Shown piece by piece: positions 55,763 to 64,000 of a DNA stretch of 64,000 nt (its first letter is position 1; the number at the start of each line of letters is the position of its first letter). The stretch is taken from contig CBDCKW010000009.1 in the NCBI GenBank assembly GCA_965218435.1, positions 3,648,001 to 3,712,000 on the forward strand. The letters are read 5' to 3'. This stretch comes from Truepera sp. GTDB lineage: Bacteria; Deinococcota; Deinococci; Deinococcales; Trueperaceae. Position numbers and translations under genes: made by a program. The notes below the pieces were generated by a model. That model did not search any database, was not told the origin of the DNA, and saw only the letters and a program-made list of their open reading frames with translations.

Positions 55763-56110
55763 GTGTCAGACCTAACAAACGACCTAGCAGACGATCTAAA
55801 TGACGTGGATAACGTCACAGCAGTAGCCCCGGAGTGTTTGCACCTTGACCCGGAAACCCGGAAAACTGCCATATTGCGGCTGAAAAGTGCCAAGGGACAC
55901 CTCGAGGGTATCTTGCGGATGTTAGATAACCCGGAGGTCTACTGTGTTGACGTGATGAAACAGCTGAGCGCCGTCCAGGGCGCACTGACCAAAGTCAACG
56001 ACAAGGTGTTGCGTGCGCATATCAGAGACCACGTGGCCACCGCCGTATTGCGCGGCGACACGGAGCACATCGTTGCCGAGCTGATGGAGGCGCTGAAATA
56101 TAAAGGCTGA
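55763..56110 (+). CDS. csoR: CsoR family metal-sensing repressor
   Basis: RLKSAKGHLEGILRM, YCVDVMKQLSAV, HIRDHV. Confidence 0.9.
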   Translation: MSDLTNDLADDLNDVDNVTAVAPECLHLDPETRKTAILRLKSAKGHLEGILRMLDNPEVYCVDVMKQLSAVQGALTKVNDKVLRAHIRDHVATAVLRGDTEHIVAELMEALKYKG

Positions 56111-56231
56111 CAAACTGTAGGGCTCGCCGTACTCAGCCGTAAACCGAGTGTCCTTTTTTTAACTCCGGCAGCTCTAGCTCGCAATCTTTTAGAACTTTCA
56201 GTATTGACTAAAAGCTTAAAAGAGACTATAT

Positions 56232-56720
56232 TTGCCAAAAGAGGTTTCAGTTATTTCTAAACATACAGAAAAACAGATGTATCTCGAGGAACTGGGAATG
56301 GCCCTAGAGGGTTTGGGAATGCCCCGTATCGCTGGCCGGGTACTGAGTGCGCTGCTGGTAGCCGACCCCCCGGAGCAAACCGCCGAACAACTCTCAAAAA
56401 CGCTCCAGGCGAGCCGGGGAGCCGTCAGCGGCGGTACGACGATGCTTACAACGATGGGCCTGATTGAACGCCGCCGCCGACCGGGAGACCGTAAAGATTA
56501 CTTCTGCAACCGACCCAACGCCTGGTTCGAGGCGACCAAGCGGCAAGTCACCCTGATCGCGCAGCTCAGGCAGTTATCCGAAAAGGGGCTCGAGGTTCTG
56601 GGGAGTGACGACCCCGAAGTCACCAAAGGTTTGCGCGACATGCGCGACATGCTCACCTTTTACGAACGCGAACTGCCGGATATCTTCGCCCGCTGGGAGG
56701 AGAAAACCAGAAAGGAATAA
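56232..56720 (+). CDS. GbsR/MarR family regulator
   Basis: GMPRIAGRVL, LQASRGAVS, PGDRKDYF. Confidence 0.85.
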   Translation: MPKEVSVISKHTEKQMYLEELGMALEGLGMPRIAGRVLSALLVADPPEQTAEQLSKTLQASRGAVSGGTTMLTTMGLIERRRRPGDRKDYFCNRPNAWFEATKRQVTLIAQLRQLSEKGLEVLGSDDPEVTKGLRDMRDMLTFYERELPDIFARWEEKTRKE

Positions 56721-56722
56721 GG

Positions 56723-57949
56723 ATGAACACCTCAATCTCTAAACTCGCGTGGCGTAATTTGTGGCGGCACAAACGCCGCACGCAGCTCTTACTCGCTGTA
56801 GTGGCTTACGCAACGGTTGCTATCATCTTTTTTTGGGGTTTTTACGACGGCTTTGTCAATGTCCTGCTAGGCGGTCAAGCGCGTTACCTGAGCGCCCCGG
56901 TGATGGTGCAAACAGAGGCGTATCGTACCGACCCCGACCCGGAAAACCGGTTGCCGACGCTGAACTTCGACGATAAGCTCACTCAGATTGACGGGGTACG
57001 CGGCGCTGCGCCGAGGCTCGAGTTTCAAGCCCTGCTGCGCTCCCCGTACCGGACGCTCGGCGCTCAGGTACGCGGCGTCAATCCGGCGTTAGAAGGGCAA
57101 GTCAGCGATATTCCCGGCACCATCGGTGAGGGTCGGATGATCCAAAATTCGGGCGAACTCGTCCTCGGCAAAACGCTCGCTGAAGACCTCGACGTGCGTG
57201 TCGGTGAAAGGCTGGCTTTAGACGTGCAGTCACTGGCGGGTGCTCAGGGTACAGGCTTAAGGGTTGTCGGGCTGATTGACAGCAACATTGACCCCGTAGA
57301 CGAAGGCGTGGTGCTCGTTCACCTAGACGACGCACGGGCGCTCACAGGGGTTAAAACAGCGACGGGCGTCGCGCTAGACGTGCAGCAAGGCAGTGAAGAC
57401 GCCGTAGCCGAGGCGGTCAATAGTGCAGCCGTTTTACCTGTAGGCGTAGAGGCGTATCCCATTAAAGCCCTTTTGGGCGGTCTCATGGCAGGTATCGAAG
57501 GCAAACGCAGCTCGATGGTCCCCATTGTGCTGATCTTTGCGCTTTTCGCGGCTGTCACGGTGATGAGTACGGTGATCGTCAGCGTGATTGAACGTACCAG
57601 AGAGTTTGGAGTGATGACCTCGCTCGGGCTGAGCCAAAACCAACTTGCGCGGATGGTGACGCTCGAGGCCGTCTACACCACCCTGATCGGCTTTGTTGTC
57701 GGTGCTGCGCTGGGTTTCGGCCTCAACGCGCTCTTATCCATAACCAACCTGATGGGACCCTTTATCAAAACCTTTTACGGCAACTATCTGCAAGGTCTGG
57801 CGCTCAGCGACACCTTTGTCCTGGCAGCGAGCCTGAGTTACCTCGGCTGGGCCGCTGTGACCATCTTGTTTGCCGCTGTCTTAGCCGTGACCGTCCCCGG
57901 CAAACGCGTCCGCAACCTCAACTCTGCCGAGGCGATGCGGGCGAACTAA
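56723..57949 (+). CDS. ABC transporter permease, FtsX/LolE-like
   Basis: LAWRNLWRHKRRT; MacB-type periplasmic domain; ERTREFGVM. Confidence 0.9.
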   Translation: MNTSISKLAWRNLWRHKRRTQLLLAVVAYATVAIIFFWGFYDGFVNVLLGGQARYLSAPVMVQTEAYRTDPDPENRLPTLNFDDKLTQIDGVRGAAPRLEFQALLRSPYRTLGAQVRGVNPALEGQVSDIPGTIGEGRMIQNSGELVLGKTLAEDLDVRVGERLALDVQSLAGAQGTGLRVVGLIDSNIDPVDEGVVLVHLDDARALTGVKTATGVALDVQQGSEDAVAEAVNSAAVLPVGVEAYPIKALLGGLMAGIEGKRSSMVPIVLIFALFAAVTVMSTVIVSVIERTREFGVMTSLGLSQNQLARMVTLEAVYTTLIGFVVGAALGFGLNALLSITNLMGPFIKTFYGNYLQGLALSDTFVLAASLSYLGWAAVTILFAAVLAVTVPGKRVRNLNSAEAMRAN

Positions 57950-57999
57950 CAGAAGTCAGAAATCAGCATAGCGTCTCTGCTGATGACCGACTACTGACC
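57950..57999. repeat. Heptamer-repeat hairpin element, empty copy 1
   Basis: CAGAAGT CAGAAAT CAGCA - 9 nt - TGCTG ATGACCG ACTACTG; 15/19 inverted match. Confidence 0.75.
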
Positions 58000-58019
58000 A
58001 CCCTCATCAAGGAGAAACC

Positions 58020-58757
58020 ATGAAGCTTAGTTACCTACTACTTACCTTCTTTCTTTCGCTCAGCTTTGCCGGTGCCCAAGATGCAGCGAGCATCCTAGAC
58101 ACCATCACCAATAACCTACGCGGCGAGTCGCAAGCTGCGACCCTAAACATGCAGGTGATCCGCCCGGACAAAGAAGATACCTACACGATGCGGATTTACA
58201 GCGAAGGTGAATCGAAAGGTCTGACCCGCGTCATCGCCCCGCCCCGCGACGCTGGCCAAGCGTTCCTAAACGATGGCGATAACGTCTTTATCTATAACCC
58301 CCGTCTGCGCCGCGTGCTGCGGCTGCCGCCGAGCGGTCAAAGCGATTCGTTTTTAGGTTCGGACATCTCGTACGACGACCTCGCCGGAGACGATTTACAA
58401 GAGAACTACTCGGCGAAGATTTTAGAAGAGACGGATAGTAGCGTGACGCTCGAGCTAACGCCCAACCCAAACGCCCCGACGCCCTACGGCAAAGTTCACC
58501 TGACTGCTGAGAAGCCCTCATACGCGCCCACTCAAATCACCTACTTCGACCAGCGCAACACGGCGGTTAAAGAGAATATCTTGTCGGACTACGCCGAGGT
58601 AGACGGGCGCTACATCCCGCAACAGTTTGAAGTCAAAGACTTGCTTACTGAAGGCAACATGACCGTTGTCACCTGGCAAGACGCGGAGTTCGGCGTTTCT
58701 ATTCCTGAGTCATGCTTTAGCCAAAACGCCTTAGAGCGTGAAGGAGCCTGCGAATGA
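58020..58757 (+). CDS. Outer membrane lipoprotein-sorting (LolA-like) protein
   Basis: Signal peptide; PPRDAGQAFL, YNPRLRRV, FLGSDISYDDL. Confidence 0.85.
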   Translation: MKLSYLLLTFFLSLSFAGAQDAASILDTITNNLRGESQAATLNMQVIRPDKEDTYTMRIYSEGESKGLTRVIAPPRDAGQAFLNDGDNVFIYNPRLRRVLRLPPSGQSDSFLGSDISYDDLAGDDLQENYSAKILEETDSSVTLELTPNPNAPTPYGKVHLTAEKPSYAPTQITYFDQRNTAVKENILSDYAEVDGRYIPQQFEVKDLLTEGNMTVVTWQDAEFGVSIPESCFSQNALEREGACE

Positions 58758-59983
58758 TCGCTTTAGCTTGGCGCAACCTCTGGCGGCAGGGGCGGCGCAG
58801 CCTGATTTCACTGTTGGCGGTGGCTCTCGTGGTGCTCTTCGCCACCGTGATGTACAGCTTAGGCGGCGCGCTGACCAACGGGATGTACGGCGACTTGACC
58901 GCTGAGGTGGGCAACGCCCAGATTCGTCCTGAAGGTTACCGCGACGCCCGTAACTTTGACGATGGACTCTTAAAGGATGCCGCCGAGCTTAGGAAGACGG
59001 TTGCACAGACCGCGCCGGACGCCGTAGTCGTGGGTGCGTTACAAGTTCCCGGTCTCGTTGCGGGGGAAACCCGCTCGCGTGGGCTGGCCGTTCAGGGACA
59101 AGATTGGCCGGAACTGTTAAAAAAAGATTTTGTCAATGACCACCTTGCTAAGGGCAGCTTTGTTGAGGGCGATAACGTCACCGGCATTATGCTCGGGCAA
59201 TCTCTGGCTACAGCACTCAAAGTCGGCTTGGGCGATGATGTGTACGTCTATGCCCCCGGCACCGACGGGTACGGCGCAGCAGCTTATACGGTTGAAGGTT
59301 TGCTAGACTTTGACGATCCGAATCAAGAGATCAACGCGGCTTACTTGTCTCTCCCGGCGGCACAAGAACTTGCAGCACCGGATGGGTTGTCGAGGCTCGA
59401 GTTGCACTTCCCCGACATCAATACCTTAGATCAAGACAGTCAGGCGGTAGGCGAACTGACCCAGCTTAGAAACGCACTGCCGCAAGGGGCTGTTGTCGAA
59501 ACCTGGCGGCAACTCGATCCGAGTCTCGCCACACTGGTCAACTTCTTTACGCCCGTTTTAGTCGTGATGTCGTTGATTTTTTTCGTGCTGGCAGGTCTGC
59601 TCGTTCTCAACACGGTTTACCTGAGCACCTTGGAGCGTGTCCGCGAGTTCGGTGTGATTATCAGTTTGGGCGCACGCGGACGGCAGATCATGGGTATGGT
59701 CACCTTAGAAAGTGTCTTGCTGTGTATGACCGGTGCTGCCCTCGGTCTGGCACTTGGTTTGGGCTTTGTGGCGCTCGGTAGAAACGGTTTGACCTTACCC
59801 GGTTACACCGAAGAAATGCTCGCCGAGGTCGGCTTACCCAACGTCCTTTACCTCTCGGTTGACCCGTGGCAAATCTTGCTCGCTGTAGGCTTCGCCGTGT
59901 TGACCGCCTTTTTTGCGGCGCTCGGCCCCGCGCGAATGGCGGCCAACATCGAACCTGCCGAGGCGATGCGGTATACGGCTTGA
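58754..59983 (+). CDS. ABC transporter permease, FtsX/LolE-like
   Basis: LAWRNLWRQGRRS, ERVREFGV, PARMAANIEPAEAMR. Confidence 0.9.
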   Translation: MIALAWRNLWRQGRRSLISLLAVALVVLFATVMYSLGGALTNGMYGDLTAEVGNAQIRPEGYRDARNFDDGLLKDAAELRKTVAQTAPDAVVVGALQVPGLVAGETRSRGLAVQGQDWPELLKKDFVNDHLAKGSFVEGDNVTGIMLGQSLATALKVGLGDDVYVYAPGTDGYGAAAYTVEGLLDFDDPNQEINAAYLSLPAAQELAAPDGLSRLELHFPDINTLDQDSQAVGELTQLRNALPQGAVVETWRQLDPSLATLVNFFTPVLVVMSLIFFVLAGLLVLNTVYLSTLERVREFGVIISLGARGRQIMGMVTLESVLLCMTGAALGLALGLGFVALGRNGLTLPGYTEEMLAEVGLPNVLYLSVDPWQILLAVGFAVLTAFFAALGPARMAANIEPAEAMRYTA

Positions 59984-59987
59984 CAAG

Positions 59988-60452
59988 CAGGAATCAGTAG
60001 TCAGCATTCGGTAGTAGGCTCAGCTATCAGGAGTCAAGAGAAAAGTAATTATTGGCAATCGGCGGAAAGGTGGAAATGATAGGACCGGCTAAAGTATTCA
60101 CGGATTTGGTCGTGTGGCAGAAGGCTCACGCCTTTGTGCTGGCTGTTTACCAACACACCGATGGTTTCCCCAGACAGGAAATCTACGGTCTAACTTCGCA
60201 GTTTCGGCGGGCTGCCGTTTCAGTTCCAGCGAACATCGCTGAGGGGTTTAGAAAACGGGGCAAGGCAGATAAAGCGCGTTATTACAACATCGCCCAAGGT
60301 TCGCTCGAGGAGTGCCGCTACTATCTCATTTTGAGTAGAGATTTAGGTTACGGCGACACCGATGACCTTACGCCCCACCTGGTCGAAACCAGCAAGCTAC
60401 TCGACGCTTTTATCAAATCTCTACTGAATTCTGAACGCTGACTACTGACTAC
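59988..60452. repeat. Heptamer inverted-repeat arrays enclosing the four-helix-bundle gene
   Basis: Left CAGGAAT CAGTAGT CAGCATT CGGTAGT..CAGCTAT CAGGAGT; right TCTACTG AATTCTG AACGCTG ACTACTG ACTAC; perfect 12-bp IR 59994-60005 / 60437-60448. Confidence 0.85.
60076..60441 (+). CDS. Four helix bundle protein (23S rRNA IVS-protein / bAvd-like family)
   Basis: DLVVWQKAH, FPRQEIYGLTSQFRRAAVSVPANIAEG, IAQGSLEE; ATG 60076 after AAGGTGG. Confidence 0.93.
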   Translation: MIGPAKVFTDLVVWQKAHAFVLAVYQHTDGFPRQEIYGLTSQFRRAAVSVPANIAEGFRKRGKADKARYYNIAQGSLEECRYYLILSRDLGYGDTDDLTPHLVETSKLLDAFIKSLLNSER

Positions 60453-60479
60453 ACGTAACTCTCGAAAAAGGAGAAACCT

Positions 60480-61178
60480 ATGTCTTTATTTACCGTAAAA
60501 AATCTGACCAAGACCTATCAAATCGGTGAGGTCAAAACGGACGCCTTACGGGGAGTTGACCTCAGGGTTGATAAGGGCGAGTTTACCGCTATCGCCGGGC
60601 CTTCGGGAAGCGGTAAAAGTACGCTGCTGCACCTCATGGGCGGCCTCGACCAACCCACCTCGGGCGAAGTTTATCTGAACGACAAGCGGATTGACCAGCT
60701 CAGTAAACAAGAGAGTGCGGCCTTGAGGCTCGAGCATCTCGGCTTCGTCTTTCAGGCGTATAACCTGATTCCGGTCCTGACAGCTTTGGAAAATGCGGCG
60801 TTTGTTTTAGAGCTCCGGGGTGTAGCTAAGAAAAAGCGTGAAGCTCGAGCCTTAGCGTCTCTTAAAGCTTTGGGGATAGCAGAGTTCGCCGACCGTAAAC
60901 CTAATCAGCTTTCAGGCGGACAGCAGCAGCGTGTCGCCGTGGCAAGAGCCTTCGCCGCCGAACCCGACATCATCTTGGCGGACGAACCTACAGCAAACCT
61001 CGACAGCAAATCGGGCGGTGACCTGATCGAACTGATGAAACGCCTGAACCGTGAGCAGGGCGTGACCTTCGTTTTTTCCACACACGACCCAAGACTTTTG
61101 GAACACGTCACGCGCACGGTTGAGATGGAAGACGGGCGCATTGTCGATACGGACAAGCTCGAGCCCGTCCTCGCCTAA
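60480..61178 (+). CDS. ABC transporter ATP-binding protein (LolD-like)
   Basis: GPSGSGKST, LSGGQQQRVA, ADEPTANLD, STHD. Confidence 0.93.
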   Translation: MSLFTVKNLTKTYQIGEVKTDALRGVDLRVDKGEFTAIAGPSGSGKSTLLHLMGGLDQPTSGEVYLNDKRIDQLSKQESAALRLEHLGFVFQAYNLIPVLTALENAAFVLELRGVAKKKREARALASLKALGIAEFADRKPNQLSGGQQQRVAVARAFAAEPDIILADEPTANLDSKSGGDLIELMKRLNREQGVTFVFSTHDPRLLEHVTRTVEMEDGRIVDTDKLEPVLA

Positions 61179-61257
61179 AAGAATGAGAAGTCAGAATACA
61201 GGAGTCGGTAGTCAGCAGATTCATCCTAACTACTCGACTACTGAGCACTGACAACTA
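61179..61257. repeat. Heptamer-repeat hairpin element, empty copy 2
   Basis: GAGAAGT CAGAATA CAGGAGT CGGTAGT CAGCAG ... ACTACTCG ACTACTG AGCACTG ACAACTA. Confidence 0.75.
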
Positions 61258-61261
61258 AGAC

Positions 61262-62296
61262 ATGAGATTTTTCTTTGCTCTGTTGTTTCTTATCATCTCT
61301 TCTACCTTCGCCCAGCCCTACTACCGGGGTGAGGTAGAGTTTGCGCTGGACTCGAGCCTCAGCACAGCGTTTCCAGCCCAAAACGGCTTGACACTGGCAG
61401 GGCACCTCGAGGCCGGTTACGACTTGGACCTTGACGACTTGGGACTCAGTGACGCTTCTCCAGTTGCGTTTAACCTCGTCCTCGACCCGAGCATACACGT
61501 TAGCCAACTTGTTACGACCGAGCCAGGGCTGACCGAGCTCTACGCCGCGACAACTTACGGCGACGTTGACCTCAGCTTGGGCGTCGAGCGGCTGCCGTTA
61601 GAAACCGCCCGCTTGAGCGTGCCTTACAGCGTTGAAACCGTGGGGGTGCGGGGCGTTCGTCACGGTGTAGCGGGCGTGCGCGGCGTCTTTTATAGCGGCG
61701 ACTGGCGTGTGCGGGGAGCTGTCTTTTATAGAGACACTGAGCGAGATTTTCTCGAGAATGTGACGCCGCTCGTGAGTGTCAGCCGAACGTTTAACAGCTT
61801 TGACTTGGAGGCTCACGCGCTCTACCAAAACGGCCTCGTTGCCGGACTCAGTAGCAGCGGCTTGGTCAGCGACGTGGTGGTTTACGGCGAAGCGTGGCTT
61901 TTGGTGGACGCAGGTTTTAACGACGTTTCTGGGCGGGGCGCGTTGGGGCTGAACGGGAACCTGGCAACCGGAACCTGGACGCTCGAGGCTGCCTACCTAG
62001 CGCCGGGACTAACGAGCCTTAAAGACGATGACGACTTCTCTCCCTCACAACTGTCATCCACAGCCGACCCGCGTCCCGCAGTGCTGGGTCAGGTCACACT
62101 GCCACTCGGCGACGAGGGCGATATGAGCTTGTCGCTAACCGGTAACGCGTTTTTCGACCCGGACGCACTGCGTTCGGGTGTCGGCGCGGGCTATACGCTC
62201 TTTGGAGACAGCGAACTCACACTCGGCGCAGCGGCGCGGTTCGGGCCTGAACCTGTGGTTGCGACGCTCAGCTTGAGCCTAAAAGCGTTTTTCTGA
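61262..62296 (+). CDS. Putative outer-membrane beta-barrel protein
   Basis: Signal peptide, alternating beta-strand pattern, C-terminal LSLKAFF. Confidence 0.65.
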   Translation: MRFFFALLFLIISSTFAQPYYRGEVEFALDSSLSTAFPAQNGLTLAGHLEAGYDLDLDDLGLSDASPVAFNLVLDPSIHVSQLVTTEPGLTELYAATTYGDVDLSLGVERLPLETARLSVPYSVETVGVRGVRHGVAGVRGVFYSGDWRVRGAVFYRDTERDFLENVTPLVSVSRTFNSFDLEAHALYQNGLVAGLSSSGLVSDVVVYGEAWLLVDAGFNDVSGRGALGLNGNLATGTWTLEAAYLAPGLTSLKDDDDFSPSQLSSTADPRPAVLGQVTLPLGDEGDMSLSLTGNAFFDPDALRSGVGAGYTLFGDSELTLGAAARFGPEPVVATLSLSLKAFF

Positions 62297-62424
62297 ATCT
62301 TTAGCTCGAGTCTAAGGTCGGTAGCTACTGCTGATTGGGTCCGCAAAGCCCTGTAAGACGTTATTCTTGCTGTCAACTTGACGCAACCTTTGCAAAATCT
62401 TGATGCAAAAAGCGCATACTTGCA

Positions 62425-63462
62425 TTGGAGGAACTCGTGAGCAAATCAGCATTCCCAGAAAAGCTTACCAAGACGATTTTTGGCAGTACAGGCGTCGTCG
62501 TAGGTTCAGTTTTAGCCGCAGTGGGCGGTTGGTGGCTTTACAGCAGACTCGGTATCAACCATGACGCCGAACTGCCCCCGGCCATTGACGCACCCCGAAC
62601 CAACTTTACGACCAAGGCCGCCGGACGGCTGAATTACTACAAGAACGACAACGACAGTGGCACCCCCCTCGTCCTGCTTCACAGCGTCAACGCGGCGGCG
62701 AGCGCGTTTGAGGTGAAGCCGCTGTTTGACATGTACCGCAACACCCGCCCGGTGTACGCCCTCGAGCTTCCGGGCTACGGGTTTTCAGACCGCGCTGACC
62801 GGGACTACACGCCTGAGCTTTTTGCCGGGGCCTTCGGTGAGTTTTTAGAGACGCAAGTGGGTAAAGCCGCCGACGTGGTGGCGTTGTCGCTCAGCAGTGA
62901 GTTCGTAGCGAGAGCAGCCCTTACTGCCCCGCAGCTGTTCCGTTCCCTGACCCTGATTTCTCCTACCGGTATGAACACCAAACGCGAGGCGAGAGCCTCG
63001 GACAAAGCTGGAAAGGAAGGCGGCAACGAGACGTTTTACGCCGTCTCGTCAAACCCGCTCTGGGCAAGAGCGTTTTATGACCTGATTGCGACGCCTGCCA
63101 GCATCCGCTACTTTTTGCAGAAGAGTTTCGTCGGGCCGGTGCCCCAAGACCTAGCGCGTTACAGCTACCTGACCTCGCATCAACCGGGGGCCGAACACGT
63201 CCCGCTGCGGTTTATCGCCGGCAAGCTCTTTAGCCCGCAAGTCAGAAAGCGGGTTTACGAACAGCTGAACGTACCGACGCTGGTGCTCTTCGATGAAGAC
63301 GGCTTTGTCAGCTTTGAAAAACTGCCTACACTGACCGCTGCCAACCCCAAGGTCAAGGCAGTGAGGCTCGAGCCCTCGAAAGGCTTGCCGCAGTTTGAGA
63401 TGCCGAGCCGCACGGCGCAGGTGCTGGACAGCTTTTGGCGTGAAGTCGGCGTTCACACCTAA
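62425..63462 (+). CDS. Alpha/beta fold hydrolase (start may be GTG 62437)
   Basis: LLHSVNAAAS, ELPGYGFSDR, VVALSLS. Confidence 0.85.
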   Translation: MEELVSKSAFPEKLTKTIFGSTGVVVGSVLAAVGGWWLYSRLGINHDAELPPAIDAPRTNFTTKAAGRLNYYKNDNDSGTPLVLLHSVNAAASAFEVKPLFDMYRNTRPVYALELPGYGFSDRADRDYTPELFAGAFGEFLETQVGKAADVVALSLSSEFVARAALTAPQLFRSLTLISPTGMNTKREARASDKAGKEGGNETFYAVSSNPLWARAFYDLIATPASIRYFLQKSFVGPVPQDLARYSYLTSHQPGAEHVPLRFIAGKLFSPQVRKRVYEQLNVPTLVLFDEDGFVSFEKLPTLTAANPKVKAVRLEPSKGLPQFEMPSRTAQVLDSFWREVGVHT

Positions 63463-63501
63463 CGAGCTTTATAGCTGGGATGTGATTTGCTTGCGCCCAT
63501 C

Positions 63502-63529
63502 AAAAAGCCCCCGCTCTATACGGGGGCTC
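63502..63529 (-). terminator. Terminator downstream of tRNA-Asn
   Basis: AAAAAGCCCCCCG...CGGGGGCT. Confidence 0.7.
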
Positions 63530-63558
63530 GACCACGCTGTCCAAGACAGCTTTTATTT

Positions 63559-63633
63559 TGGCTCCGCGGGTAGGGCTCGAACCTACGACCGATCGATTAA
63601 CAGTCGATTGCTCTACCACTGAGCTACCGCGGA
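63559..63633 (-). tRNA. tRNA-Asn(GTT)
   Basis: Minus strand: TCCGCGG acceptor stem, ATCGA-CTGTTAA-TCGAT, encoded CCA. Confidence 0.96.
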
Positions 63634-63709
63634 ACACGCGCCCGCATAACGTTCAAGCAGGCGAAGCCAGTTTAACAGGGTGCGCTCGCCCTTGGCAAGT
63701 GCAAGGCGC

Positions 63710-64000
63710 TCAGACGTCCTCTAAGTACGTGTACCCCACTAACTCCGCACTGTACTTGCTGAGGAGCGCCTCAGCGTCCGGGCGCGACAGGGTACCGTTT
63801 GCCATCGCCTCATCCGCCTCTTCAATGAGCCAGTCCCGAAGCTGCGGTGCTTCGTAGCCCATATTTTCAATGACGCGGCGCGCCTTTTGACCATTGACGA
63901 TACGTTCGATGATGAAACCTTCGGGTGTCAAGCGGATGTGCGCTTCGTTGACACGGCCGAAGAGGTTGTGCGAGTTGGCCAGCACATCTTGGTATGCGCC
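63710..64000 (-). CDS. speA: Biosynthetic arginine decarboxylase, 3' end (partial)
   Basis: GAYQDVLANSHNLFG and terminal GYTYLE. Confidence 0.9.
   Translation of the reverse strand, partial: GAYQDVLANSHNLFGRVNEAHIRLTPEGFIIERIVNGQKARRVIENMGYEAPQLRDWLIEEADEAMANGTLSRPDAEALLSKYSAELVGYTYLEDV

What the first reader, a model, noticed from the sequence alone, without database searches (positions are those of the whole stretch)
59988..60452. Four-helix-bundle gene enclosed by inverted heptamer arrays inside an operon: candidate mRNA intervening or mobile cassette
Seen: the 121-aa gene sits between a permease and the ATPase. It has about 6 CAGNAGT-like heptamers upstream and about 5 reverse-complement ACTNCTG heptamers that overlap its last codons and stop. 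A perfect 12-bp IR (TCAGTAGTCAGC / GCTGACTACTGA) extends to about 18 bp with one mismatch and one G-U pair, so the whole ORF could loop out of the transcript. Known: members of this family were first found in excised 23S rRNA intervening sequences of Leptospira and share a fold with the DGR accessory protein bAvd; their function is unknown. Inference: repeats plus gene form one unit that inserts at operon junctions, and the protein may bind the heptamer RNA or DNA, or the stem may be processed.
Basis: partly seen in the sequence, partly recalled or inferred. Interest (0 to 1): 0.85.

Follow-up and report, generated by a model that had tools for sequence, protein, structure and literature searches.

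The report
Hairpin-armed gene cassette in transporter operon
A small gene of the kind first seen inside ribosomal-RNA "intervening sequences" sits between two transporter genes, held by mirror-image runs of 7-base repeats; it comes, goes and flips among relatives, gene-less copies of its arms are scattered through the genome, and the enzyme known to cut such inserts out of RNA was not found in this lineage.

Summary
Observation confirmed: a TIGR02436/PF05635 four-helix-bundle (FHB) gene lies between inverted heptamer arrays that form an 18-bp stem. The gene is at this junction in 3 of 56 related operon copies, once inverted. Two more copies sit after other permease genes of the same operon family. 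These five form one clade but are scattered on the operon tree, and look old and under purifying selection. The arrays are not private to the gene: this genome has one FHB gene but 29 array loci, two of them gene-less hairpins in this operon. Across 151 genomes of an unrelated family, 23 of 57 FHB carriers versus 1 of 94 others are array-rich. No RNase III nuclease domain was found in 301 genomes of the phylum, yet FHB arms there stay complementary (36 of 37 loci). So RNase III excision, as in 23S rRNA intervening sequences, is unlikely here. Best reading (0.5): a slow, DNA-level mobile cassette whose empty hairpins are footprints or landing pads. This scan has found the cassette type before on other DNA; nine literature searches found no general description.

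The parts
59988..60034 (+). 5' arm: six heptamer units, purine-rich, starting 4 nt after the permease stop
60076..60441 (+). Four-helix-bundle gene, 121 aa, TIGR02436 / PF05635; intact; SD-like purine run upstream (read from sequence)
60420..60452 (+). 3' arm: reverse-complement heptamer units that encode the last residues and the stop codon
59994..60448 (+). Long-range stem 59994-60011 paired with 60431-60448 (18 bp, one mismatch, one G-U) enclosing the gene
57950..57998 (+). Gene-less hairpin of the same units right after the stop of the first permease
   Evidence: -19.2 kcal/mol, 4 of 200 shuffles as low
61185..61252 (+). Gene-less hairpin of the same units after the ATPase stop
   Evidence: -22.2 kcal/mol, 0 of 200 shuffles as low
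58754..59983 (+). Host gene upstream: FtsX/MacB-type permease (context, not part of the cassette)
60480..61178 (+). Host gene downstream: ABC ATPase (context, not part of the cassette)

Best explanation
This is an old, intact copy of a small mobile cassette: an FHB gene between two complementary arrays of 7-base units. The same arms without the gene form a dispersed repeat family in genomes that carry, or recently carried, the gene. Shown: the unit's build, its patchy presence, its inversion, its purifying selection, and the genome-level link between gene and arrays. Inferred mechanism: it moves as DNA, rarely, and without a transposase of its own. The arrays act as short-homology recombination substrates just after stop codons in transcribed operons. 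The gene enters or leaves an existing hairpin, can land or flip in either orientation, and leaves an empty hairpin when the loop is deleted. The Avd-like protein binds the arms and promotes annealing or recruits a host enzyme. On the mRNA the stem loops the gene out and brings the permease stop within about 40 nt of the ATPase start, so the operon is little disturbed; no cutting is needed.
For: FHB at the permease-ATPase junction in 3 of 56 operon copies (G000 and G164 forward, G001 inverted); after another permease in G319 and G204. Five carriers need 5 changes on the permease tree, as for shuffled labels (mean 4.9), or by my count about 11-12 losses. FHB identities are flat (G000-G001 72%, G000-G319 69%, G000-G164 68% including its frameshifted tail) while the permeases are 49%, 48% and 80%. 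Relatives at 62-72% identity lie in many phyla. Arms are complementary within a cassette although units differ between cassettes: 36 of 37 loci, against 4 of 37 for direct repeats and 37 of 222 non-cognate pairs; 76 of 87 in the wider set. By eye, the arms in G000, G164 and G001 resemble the gene-less arrays of their own operon more than each other. Arrays track the gene between genomes: 23 of 57 versus 1 of 94; 40 of 50 carriers in other phyla have 10 or more matches. pN 0.19-0.30 against pS of 0.71 or more. No RNase III nuclease domain in 301 of 301 genomes.
Against: No movement was caught: one FHB copy per genome here, no target duplication or array remnant at the sister's empty junction (G005), and no contig joining across the cassette in the one sample laid. 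The five family copies form one clade and stay with one operon family, which ancient inheritance also predicts. The protein resembles no recombinase or nuclease. Array-rich genomes without a detected FHB exist (G167, G233, G292; G475), 8 of 21 close-clade carriers in the second family are array-poor, and about 22 of this genome's arrays are single, not hairpins. No FHB remnant was found next to solo arrays. Kin are not independent, so the co-occurrence counts overstate.
Confidence: 0.5

Rival explanations
1. Host-domesticated post-transcriptional regulator: the protein binds heptamer arrays on mRNAs at about 30 sites and tunes translation or stability; the arms round its own gene are an autoregulatory site.
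For: Strong purifying selection and long residence; 29 of 31 array hits lie outside called ORFs in a genome 86% covered by ORFs; hairpins sit just after stops; arrays co-occur with the gene. MacGregor 2015 (PMC4679880, abstract) proposed a regulatory binding protein for TAACTGA arrays.
Against: Scattered presence, clean absence in sisters, an antisense copy (G001) and a frameshifted copy (G164). Units differ freely between cassettes while complementarity is kept, which points to pairing more than to a fixed binding word.
Confidence: 0.2
2. Ancient passenger: one insertion into the ancestor of this operon family, then vertical descent with many deletions through the inverted arms, one inversion and local shifts; no present mobility.
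For: Five copies monophyletic (SH-aLRT 91, quick tree), all after a permease of this operon family, saturated synonymous sites and host-like GC3. Inverted repeats promote deletion and inversion (established knowledge).
Against: Needs about 11-12 losses on the tree; FHB distances do not follow operon distances; it does not explain selection on the protein or the dispersed arrays; close relatives across phyla need horizontal transfer at some level.
Confidence: 0.15
3. mRNA intervening sequence: the stem is cut and the gene is excised from the transcript as in 23S rRNA IVS, splitting the operon mRNA.
For: Same build as the Coxiella IVS: 28-bp terminal stem, heptamer repeats before the ORF, RNase III cleavage in vitro (PMC4990558 passages). 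The stem is well predicted.
Against: No RNase III nuclease domain in G000 or 300 other genomes of the phylum, with 8 of 14 controls positive; only a sub-cutoff match to the C-terminal part of TIGR02191 in a 184-aa protein. The stem is 18 bp with a mismatch. Another nuclease is not excluded; none was tested.
Confidence: 0.08
4. Retro-element accessory: like Avd in DGRs, the protein helps a reverse transcriptase encoded elsewhere to copy the stem-loop RNA into new sites.
For: Fold shared with Avd (4dwl, TM 0.78, E 0.043, 10% identity); sites lie in transcribed spacers; RTs are present in 3 of 5 carrier genomes.
Against: No RT in the single-contig genome G001, which has the most arrays of these five, nor in G204. 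Score against the Avd model is 23.6 bits, cutoff 80. No RT among the neighbouring genes scanned.
Confidence: 0.07

Closest known systems
ORF-bearing 23S rRNA intervening sequences (Coxiella burnetii S23p IVS, PMC4990558; Leptospira as cited there)
   Same: Same protein family (PF05635), terminal stem round the ORF, heptamer repeats before the start codon, sporadic distribution.
   Different: Lies between protein-coding genes, occurs inverted, has gene-less copies across the genome, and lives in a phylum where no RNase III nuclease domain was found.
Dispersed bacterial heptamer repeats (Xanthomonas GGGAATC and Nostoc repeats, PMC4692102; Beggiatoaceae TAACTGA, PMC4679880)
   Same: Period 7, a few units, intergenic, close to gene ends; 70-75 inverted pairs in Xanthomonas. 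One relative here (L088) has TAACTGA arrays as its downstream arm.
   Different: Word searches in those papers found no mention of intervening sequences or this protein; unit sequence differs.
REP/REPIN hairpins with RAYT (recalled, no call)
   Same: One or few protein genes flanked by inverted copies of a repeat that is also dispersed without the gene; gene and repeat co-occur between genomes.
   Different: RAYT is an HUH transposase; this protein is an all-helical bundle with no known catalytic site, and the arms are tandem heptamers.
DGR accessory protein Avd (PDB 4DWL) and Xcc0516 (PDB 2GSC)
   Same: Four-helix fold: TM 0.89, E 7e-8 to 2GSC; TM 0.78 to 4DWL. 2GSC is a homopentamer (PMC4990558).
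   Different: Below the Avd family cutoff; no RT among the neighbouring genes scanned.

Membership tests
TIGR02436 / PF05635 four helix bundle protein | Score above curated cutoffs | tested here: met
   114.8 bits vs 24; 119.3 vs 33.8
TIGR02436 / PF05635 four helix bundle protein | Four-helix fold like 2GSC | tested here: met
   Model pLDDT 93.6, four helices; 2GSC TM 0.89
TIGR02436 / PF05635 four helix bundle protein | Homopentameric ring | not tested
   No complex prediction was run
23S rRNA IVS with ORF | Located in a 23S rRNA gene | tested here: not met
   Between a permease and an ATPase gene; no rRNA match in 56000-64000
23S rRNA IVS with ORF | Terminal complementary stem round the ORF, with heptamer repeats | tested here: met
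   compare PMC4990558
23S rRNA IVS with ORF | Host RNase III available to excise it | tested here: not met
   0 of 301 with PF14622; 0 of 5 with PF00636
23S rRNA IVS with ORF | Actual excision from the transcript | not testable with these tools
   No RNA data could be laid on it
DGR Avd | Score above NF033474 cutoff | tested here: not met
   23.6 vs 80 bits
DGR Avd | Adjacent reverse transcriptase gene | tested here: not met
   The seven neighbouring proteins scanned match no RT family; the genome's RTs lie elsewhere. TR/VR not searched.
REPIN/RAYT system | Gene flanked by inverted copies of a dispersed repeat that co-occurs with it | tested here: met
REPIN/RAYT system | The gene encodes an HUH (Y1) transposase | tested here: not met
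   Only PF05635 matches
Insertion sequence / MITE | Several near-identical copies and target-site duplications | tested here: not met
   One FHB copy; arrays are degenerate; no duplication seen against the G005 spacer, which is too diverged for a firm test

The most novel reading that the evidence does not exclude
FHB cassettes are the driving element of a transposase-free, REPIN-like class: the Avd-like ring recognises its own arms and spreads them, so that the unexplained dispersed heptamer repeats of many phyla and the ORF-bearing rRNA intervening sequences are footprints and copies of one element family, and RNase III excision is only a side effect of landing in rRNA.
Probability: 0.3. Interest if true: 0.9.

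Novelty: new variant of a known kind. Interest (0 to 1): 0.66.

Why it matters
It ties two old open questions together: what the ORF of rRNA intervening sequences does, and where dispersed bacterial heptamer repeats come from. This case adds a natural control. The cassette and its complementary arms persist across a phylum in which no RNase III nuclease domain was found, so the stem is probably not kept for RNase III. One operon here shows the full, empty and (in a relative) inverted states, which gives ready substrates for binding and mobility assays in harmless, cultivable hosts of the phylum.

Tried and rejected
Whole-cassette folding is not better than shuffles (z -0.77); only the arm duplex is. 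RNA evidence: no RNA holder listed. Two contig sets of one sample showed no joint across the cassette; contigs cannot show absence. A nucleotide profile of 80 related gene bodies found no convincing FHB remnant in the genome (next best E 0.066), so solo arrays are not shown to be decayed cassettes. No Rfam match at the cassette. Promoter scan: two 9-of-12 sigma-70-like sites and three terminator-like sites inside the ORF, not used. A fixed rule 'protein clade sets the unit' was rejected: most of the close clade shares the unit (non-cognate arms match in 243 of 435 pairs), but G164 has other units. A recent insertion in this genome was rejected (saturated pS, host-like GC3). RT and Y1 transposase as required helpers: in 3 of 5 and 4 of 5 carriers, neither in all. 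The careful tree did not finish; the quick tree was used. The census of arrays in this genome rests on one motif model at one threshold; weaker arrays and hairpin partners are undercounted. Ralph and McClelland 1993 and 1994 were not held. Two papers read for RNase III in this phylum gave nothing. No complex prediction was run.

Full report
Observation. A 121-aa gene (60076-60441) lies between an FtsX/MacB-type permease and an ABC ATPase in an operon MarR, permease, LolA-like, permease, ATPase, unknown. Six heptamer units precede it; four and a partial one, in reverse complement, overlap its end. They give an 18-bp stem with one mismatch and one G-U pair, predicted with probabilities 0.85-1.0; the arm duplex beats 500 of 500 shuffles. 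The whole cassette does not fold better than shuffles.

The protein. It is a clear TIGR02436/PF05635 member. The model has four helices (pLDDT 93.6) and matches Xcc0516 (2GSC, TM 0.89) and, weakly, Avd (4DWL, TM 0.78, E 0.043). It scores 23.6 bits on the Avd model, cutoff 80. In 38 aligned relatives the invariant columns include R44, R45, R68, W14, Y25 and three glutamates. That Avd binds nucleic acid without sequence preference is recalled, not checked.

Presence and absence. I examined 75 permease loci from the family and order, dropped one duplicate (L026 has the same junctions as G319, which places the host family in Trueperaceae) and 17 with neither an adjacent ATPase nor an FHB gene, and kept 57. 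At the permease-ATPase junction the gene is present in 3 of 56: here, in G164 (forward, frameshifted, other arm units) and in G001 (inverted, with its arms). G319 has it after the first permease, and G204 about 190 nt after a paralogous permease. The sister G005 (permease 93% identical) has a 54-nt spacer without arrays. The five copies form one clade among 94 rows (SH-aLRT 91; quick tree, the careful search did not finish) but are scattered on the permease tree: 5 changes, shuffled mean 4.9; a single origin needs about 11-12 losses by my count. FHB identities are flat (61-72%) whether the permeases are 80% or 46-55% alike. Synonymous sites are saturated, pN is 0.19-0.30, and GC3 follows each host (0.55 vs 0.65, 0.76 vs 0.93, 0.28 vs 0.25). 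So the copies are old residents under purifying selection that either moved within the family with a liking for permease ends, or were inherited and mostly lost. Spacers are too diverged to place breakpoints.

Arms are a family trait. The 80 best relatives (62-72% identity; 447 were confirmed, 80 kept) come from many phyla. In 87 usable of 89 loci, period 7 stands out upstream in 57 and downstream in 73, other periods in at most 4; an inverted match scoring 12 or more is found in 76, a direct one in 9. Non-cognate pairs also match often (243 of 435), because this clade shares one unit. Among 37 loci of the host phylum (36 distinct), where units vary widely, 36 have the cognate inverted match, 4 a direct one, and 37 of 222 non-cognate pairs match. 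Complementarity, not one word, is what is kept. By crude ORF calls, 50 of 70 evaluable relatives are co-oriented with both neighbours and 2 are antisense to both (10 at contig edges).

Arrays without the gene. This genome has one FHB gene but 31 array hits at 29 loci, against 1 in a shuffled genome. Of the 31 hits, 29 lie outside called ORFs, which cover 86% of the main contig. About five loci are gene-less hairpins just after a stop between co-oriented genes, two of them in this operon (57950-57998, 61185-61252); about 22 are single arrays. Gene-less hairpins with various units also sit after the first permease in several relatives that lack the gene (G004, G008, G195). A 17-nt pattern gave 13 matches here, 66 in G001 and at most 2 in the other 29 genomes. 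In 301 genomes of the phylum, 19 have 5 or more matches; 14 of these have an FHB hit by the protein query (87 carriers in all), 2 more by the family model, and 3 have none. These tallies, and that, include G255, which is unpublished; no conclusion depends on it. In 151 genomes of the family of G358, 23 of 57 FHB carriers and 1 of 94 others have 10 or more; for the close clade 13 of 21 against 11 of 130. Kin are not independent and many of these genomes are incomplete.

RNase III. The known fate of this build is excision from 23S rRNA: the Coxiella IVS has a 28-bp stem, heptamer repeats before its ORF, and is cut by RNase III (PMC4990558, passages). Here PF14622 finds nothing in 301 of 301 genomes of the phylum, and PF00636 nothing in the five carriers, while 8 of 14 controls match. 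TIGR02191 finds only a sub-cutoff match to its C-terminal part in a 184-aa protein, by recall the dsRNA-binding domain. The arms are therefore maintained where the known cutter was not found. Other nucleases were not tested.

Mechanism. I favour (0.5) a slow DNA-level cassette: arrays at gene ends serve as recombination substrates; the gene enters, flips in or drops out of a hairpin; the protein binds the arms and assists; on mRNA the stem hides the insert. The build, patchiness, inversion, selection and co-occurrence are shown; every step of movement and all binding are inferred. Against it: no movement caught, no catalytic motif, one clade tied to one operon family, array-rich genomes without the gene. 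Rivals are a domesticated RNA regulator (0.2), an ancient passenger (0.15), processing by another nuclease (0.08) and RT-assisted copying (0.07; RT in 3 of 5 carriers, none in G001).

Known and new. It works like an IVS-type cassette and, in its distribution, like REPIN/RAYT (recalled), but fails the membership tests of both and of DGR Avd. Dispersed heptamers are described without a source: PMC4692102 (abstract and passages) and PMC4679880 (abstract, outline and passages); word searches there found no mention of this protein or of intervening sequences. PMC10053308 (passages) notes the PF05635-Avd likeness. 10.1101/2023.10.23.563531 was seen only as a listing; PMC7761764 and PMC3997798 as passages without use; Ralph and McClelland 1993, 1994 and Lin 2006 only as cited in PMC4990558. 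Nine searches found no general description of the cassette; the library lacks most subscription journals and I opened no supplements, where repeat-neighbour tables could list such genes. The scan itself has noted this cassette type on other DNA many times; those notes are unchecked and are not counted as support. What this locus adds is the RNase III-free host, the three states in one operon family, and a counted gene-array association. Verdict: real, a new variant of a known kind, interest 0.66.

Noticed in passing
G000:C9, 22 single arrays (e.g. 285764, 853103, 1671949, 2078771, 2094125, 2213825, 2459942): A degenerate tail of about 45 nt follows some single arrays; 7 of 22 held-out tails beat at least 95% of 200 random controls. 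Possibly a derived repeat or small RNA family.
   Followed up: partly
G000:C9:2206040-2206078 and about 12 other places: A separate repeat of about 45 nt, 85-98% identical between copies, lies beside two of the arrays.
   Followed up: no
window 59790-60983, run X1 record 6 and run X2 record 14: Strain contigs differ at 19 and 10 places, all in the permease end or the ATPase and none in the 496-nt insert; the differences are clustered and from one sample.
   Followed up: no
L020, L021, L022, L023, L025: Distant FHB genes of the phylum recur between genes that I read, from recall, as trpE and trpG, with different arm units; in L021 the downstream arm may be read in frame at the start of the next gene.
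   Followed up: partly
L088, downstream arm: The arm is a run of TAACTGA units, the repeat studied in PMC4679880; this copy's ORF has an internal stop.
   Followed up: no
L002 and L004, first permease-LolA junction: An extra gene of about 300 codons, a short-chain dehydrogenase by recall, sits at this junction; in L004 it follows a gene-less heptamer hairpin.
   Followed up: no
L177 / L026, first permease-LolA junction: The 5' arm has a 15-nt period (7 plus 8) instead of 7.
   Followed up: no
L199:1150-1704 (-): A 184-aa protein matches only the C-terminal part of the RNase III model and carries a short tandem peptide repeat.
   Followed up: partly
G000, C4, C5, C9: Seven reverse transcriptase matches (four with the same score and a 568-aa frame) and 22 Y1 transposase matches, several with an in-frame TAG.
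   Followed up: no
window 63562-63633 (-): A tRNA gene.
   Followed up: no
window 61262-62296 (+): The last gene of the operon (344 aa) has no Pfam or NCBIfam match but is conserved after the ATPase in most relatives.
   Followed up: no
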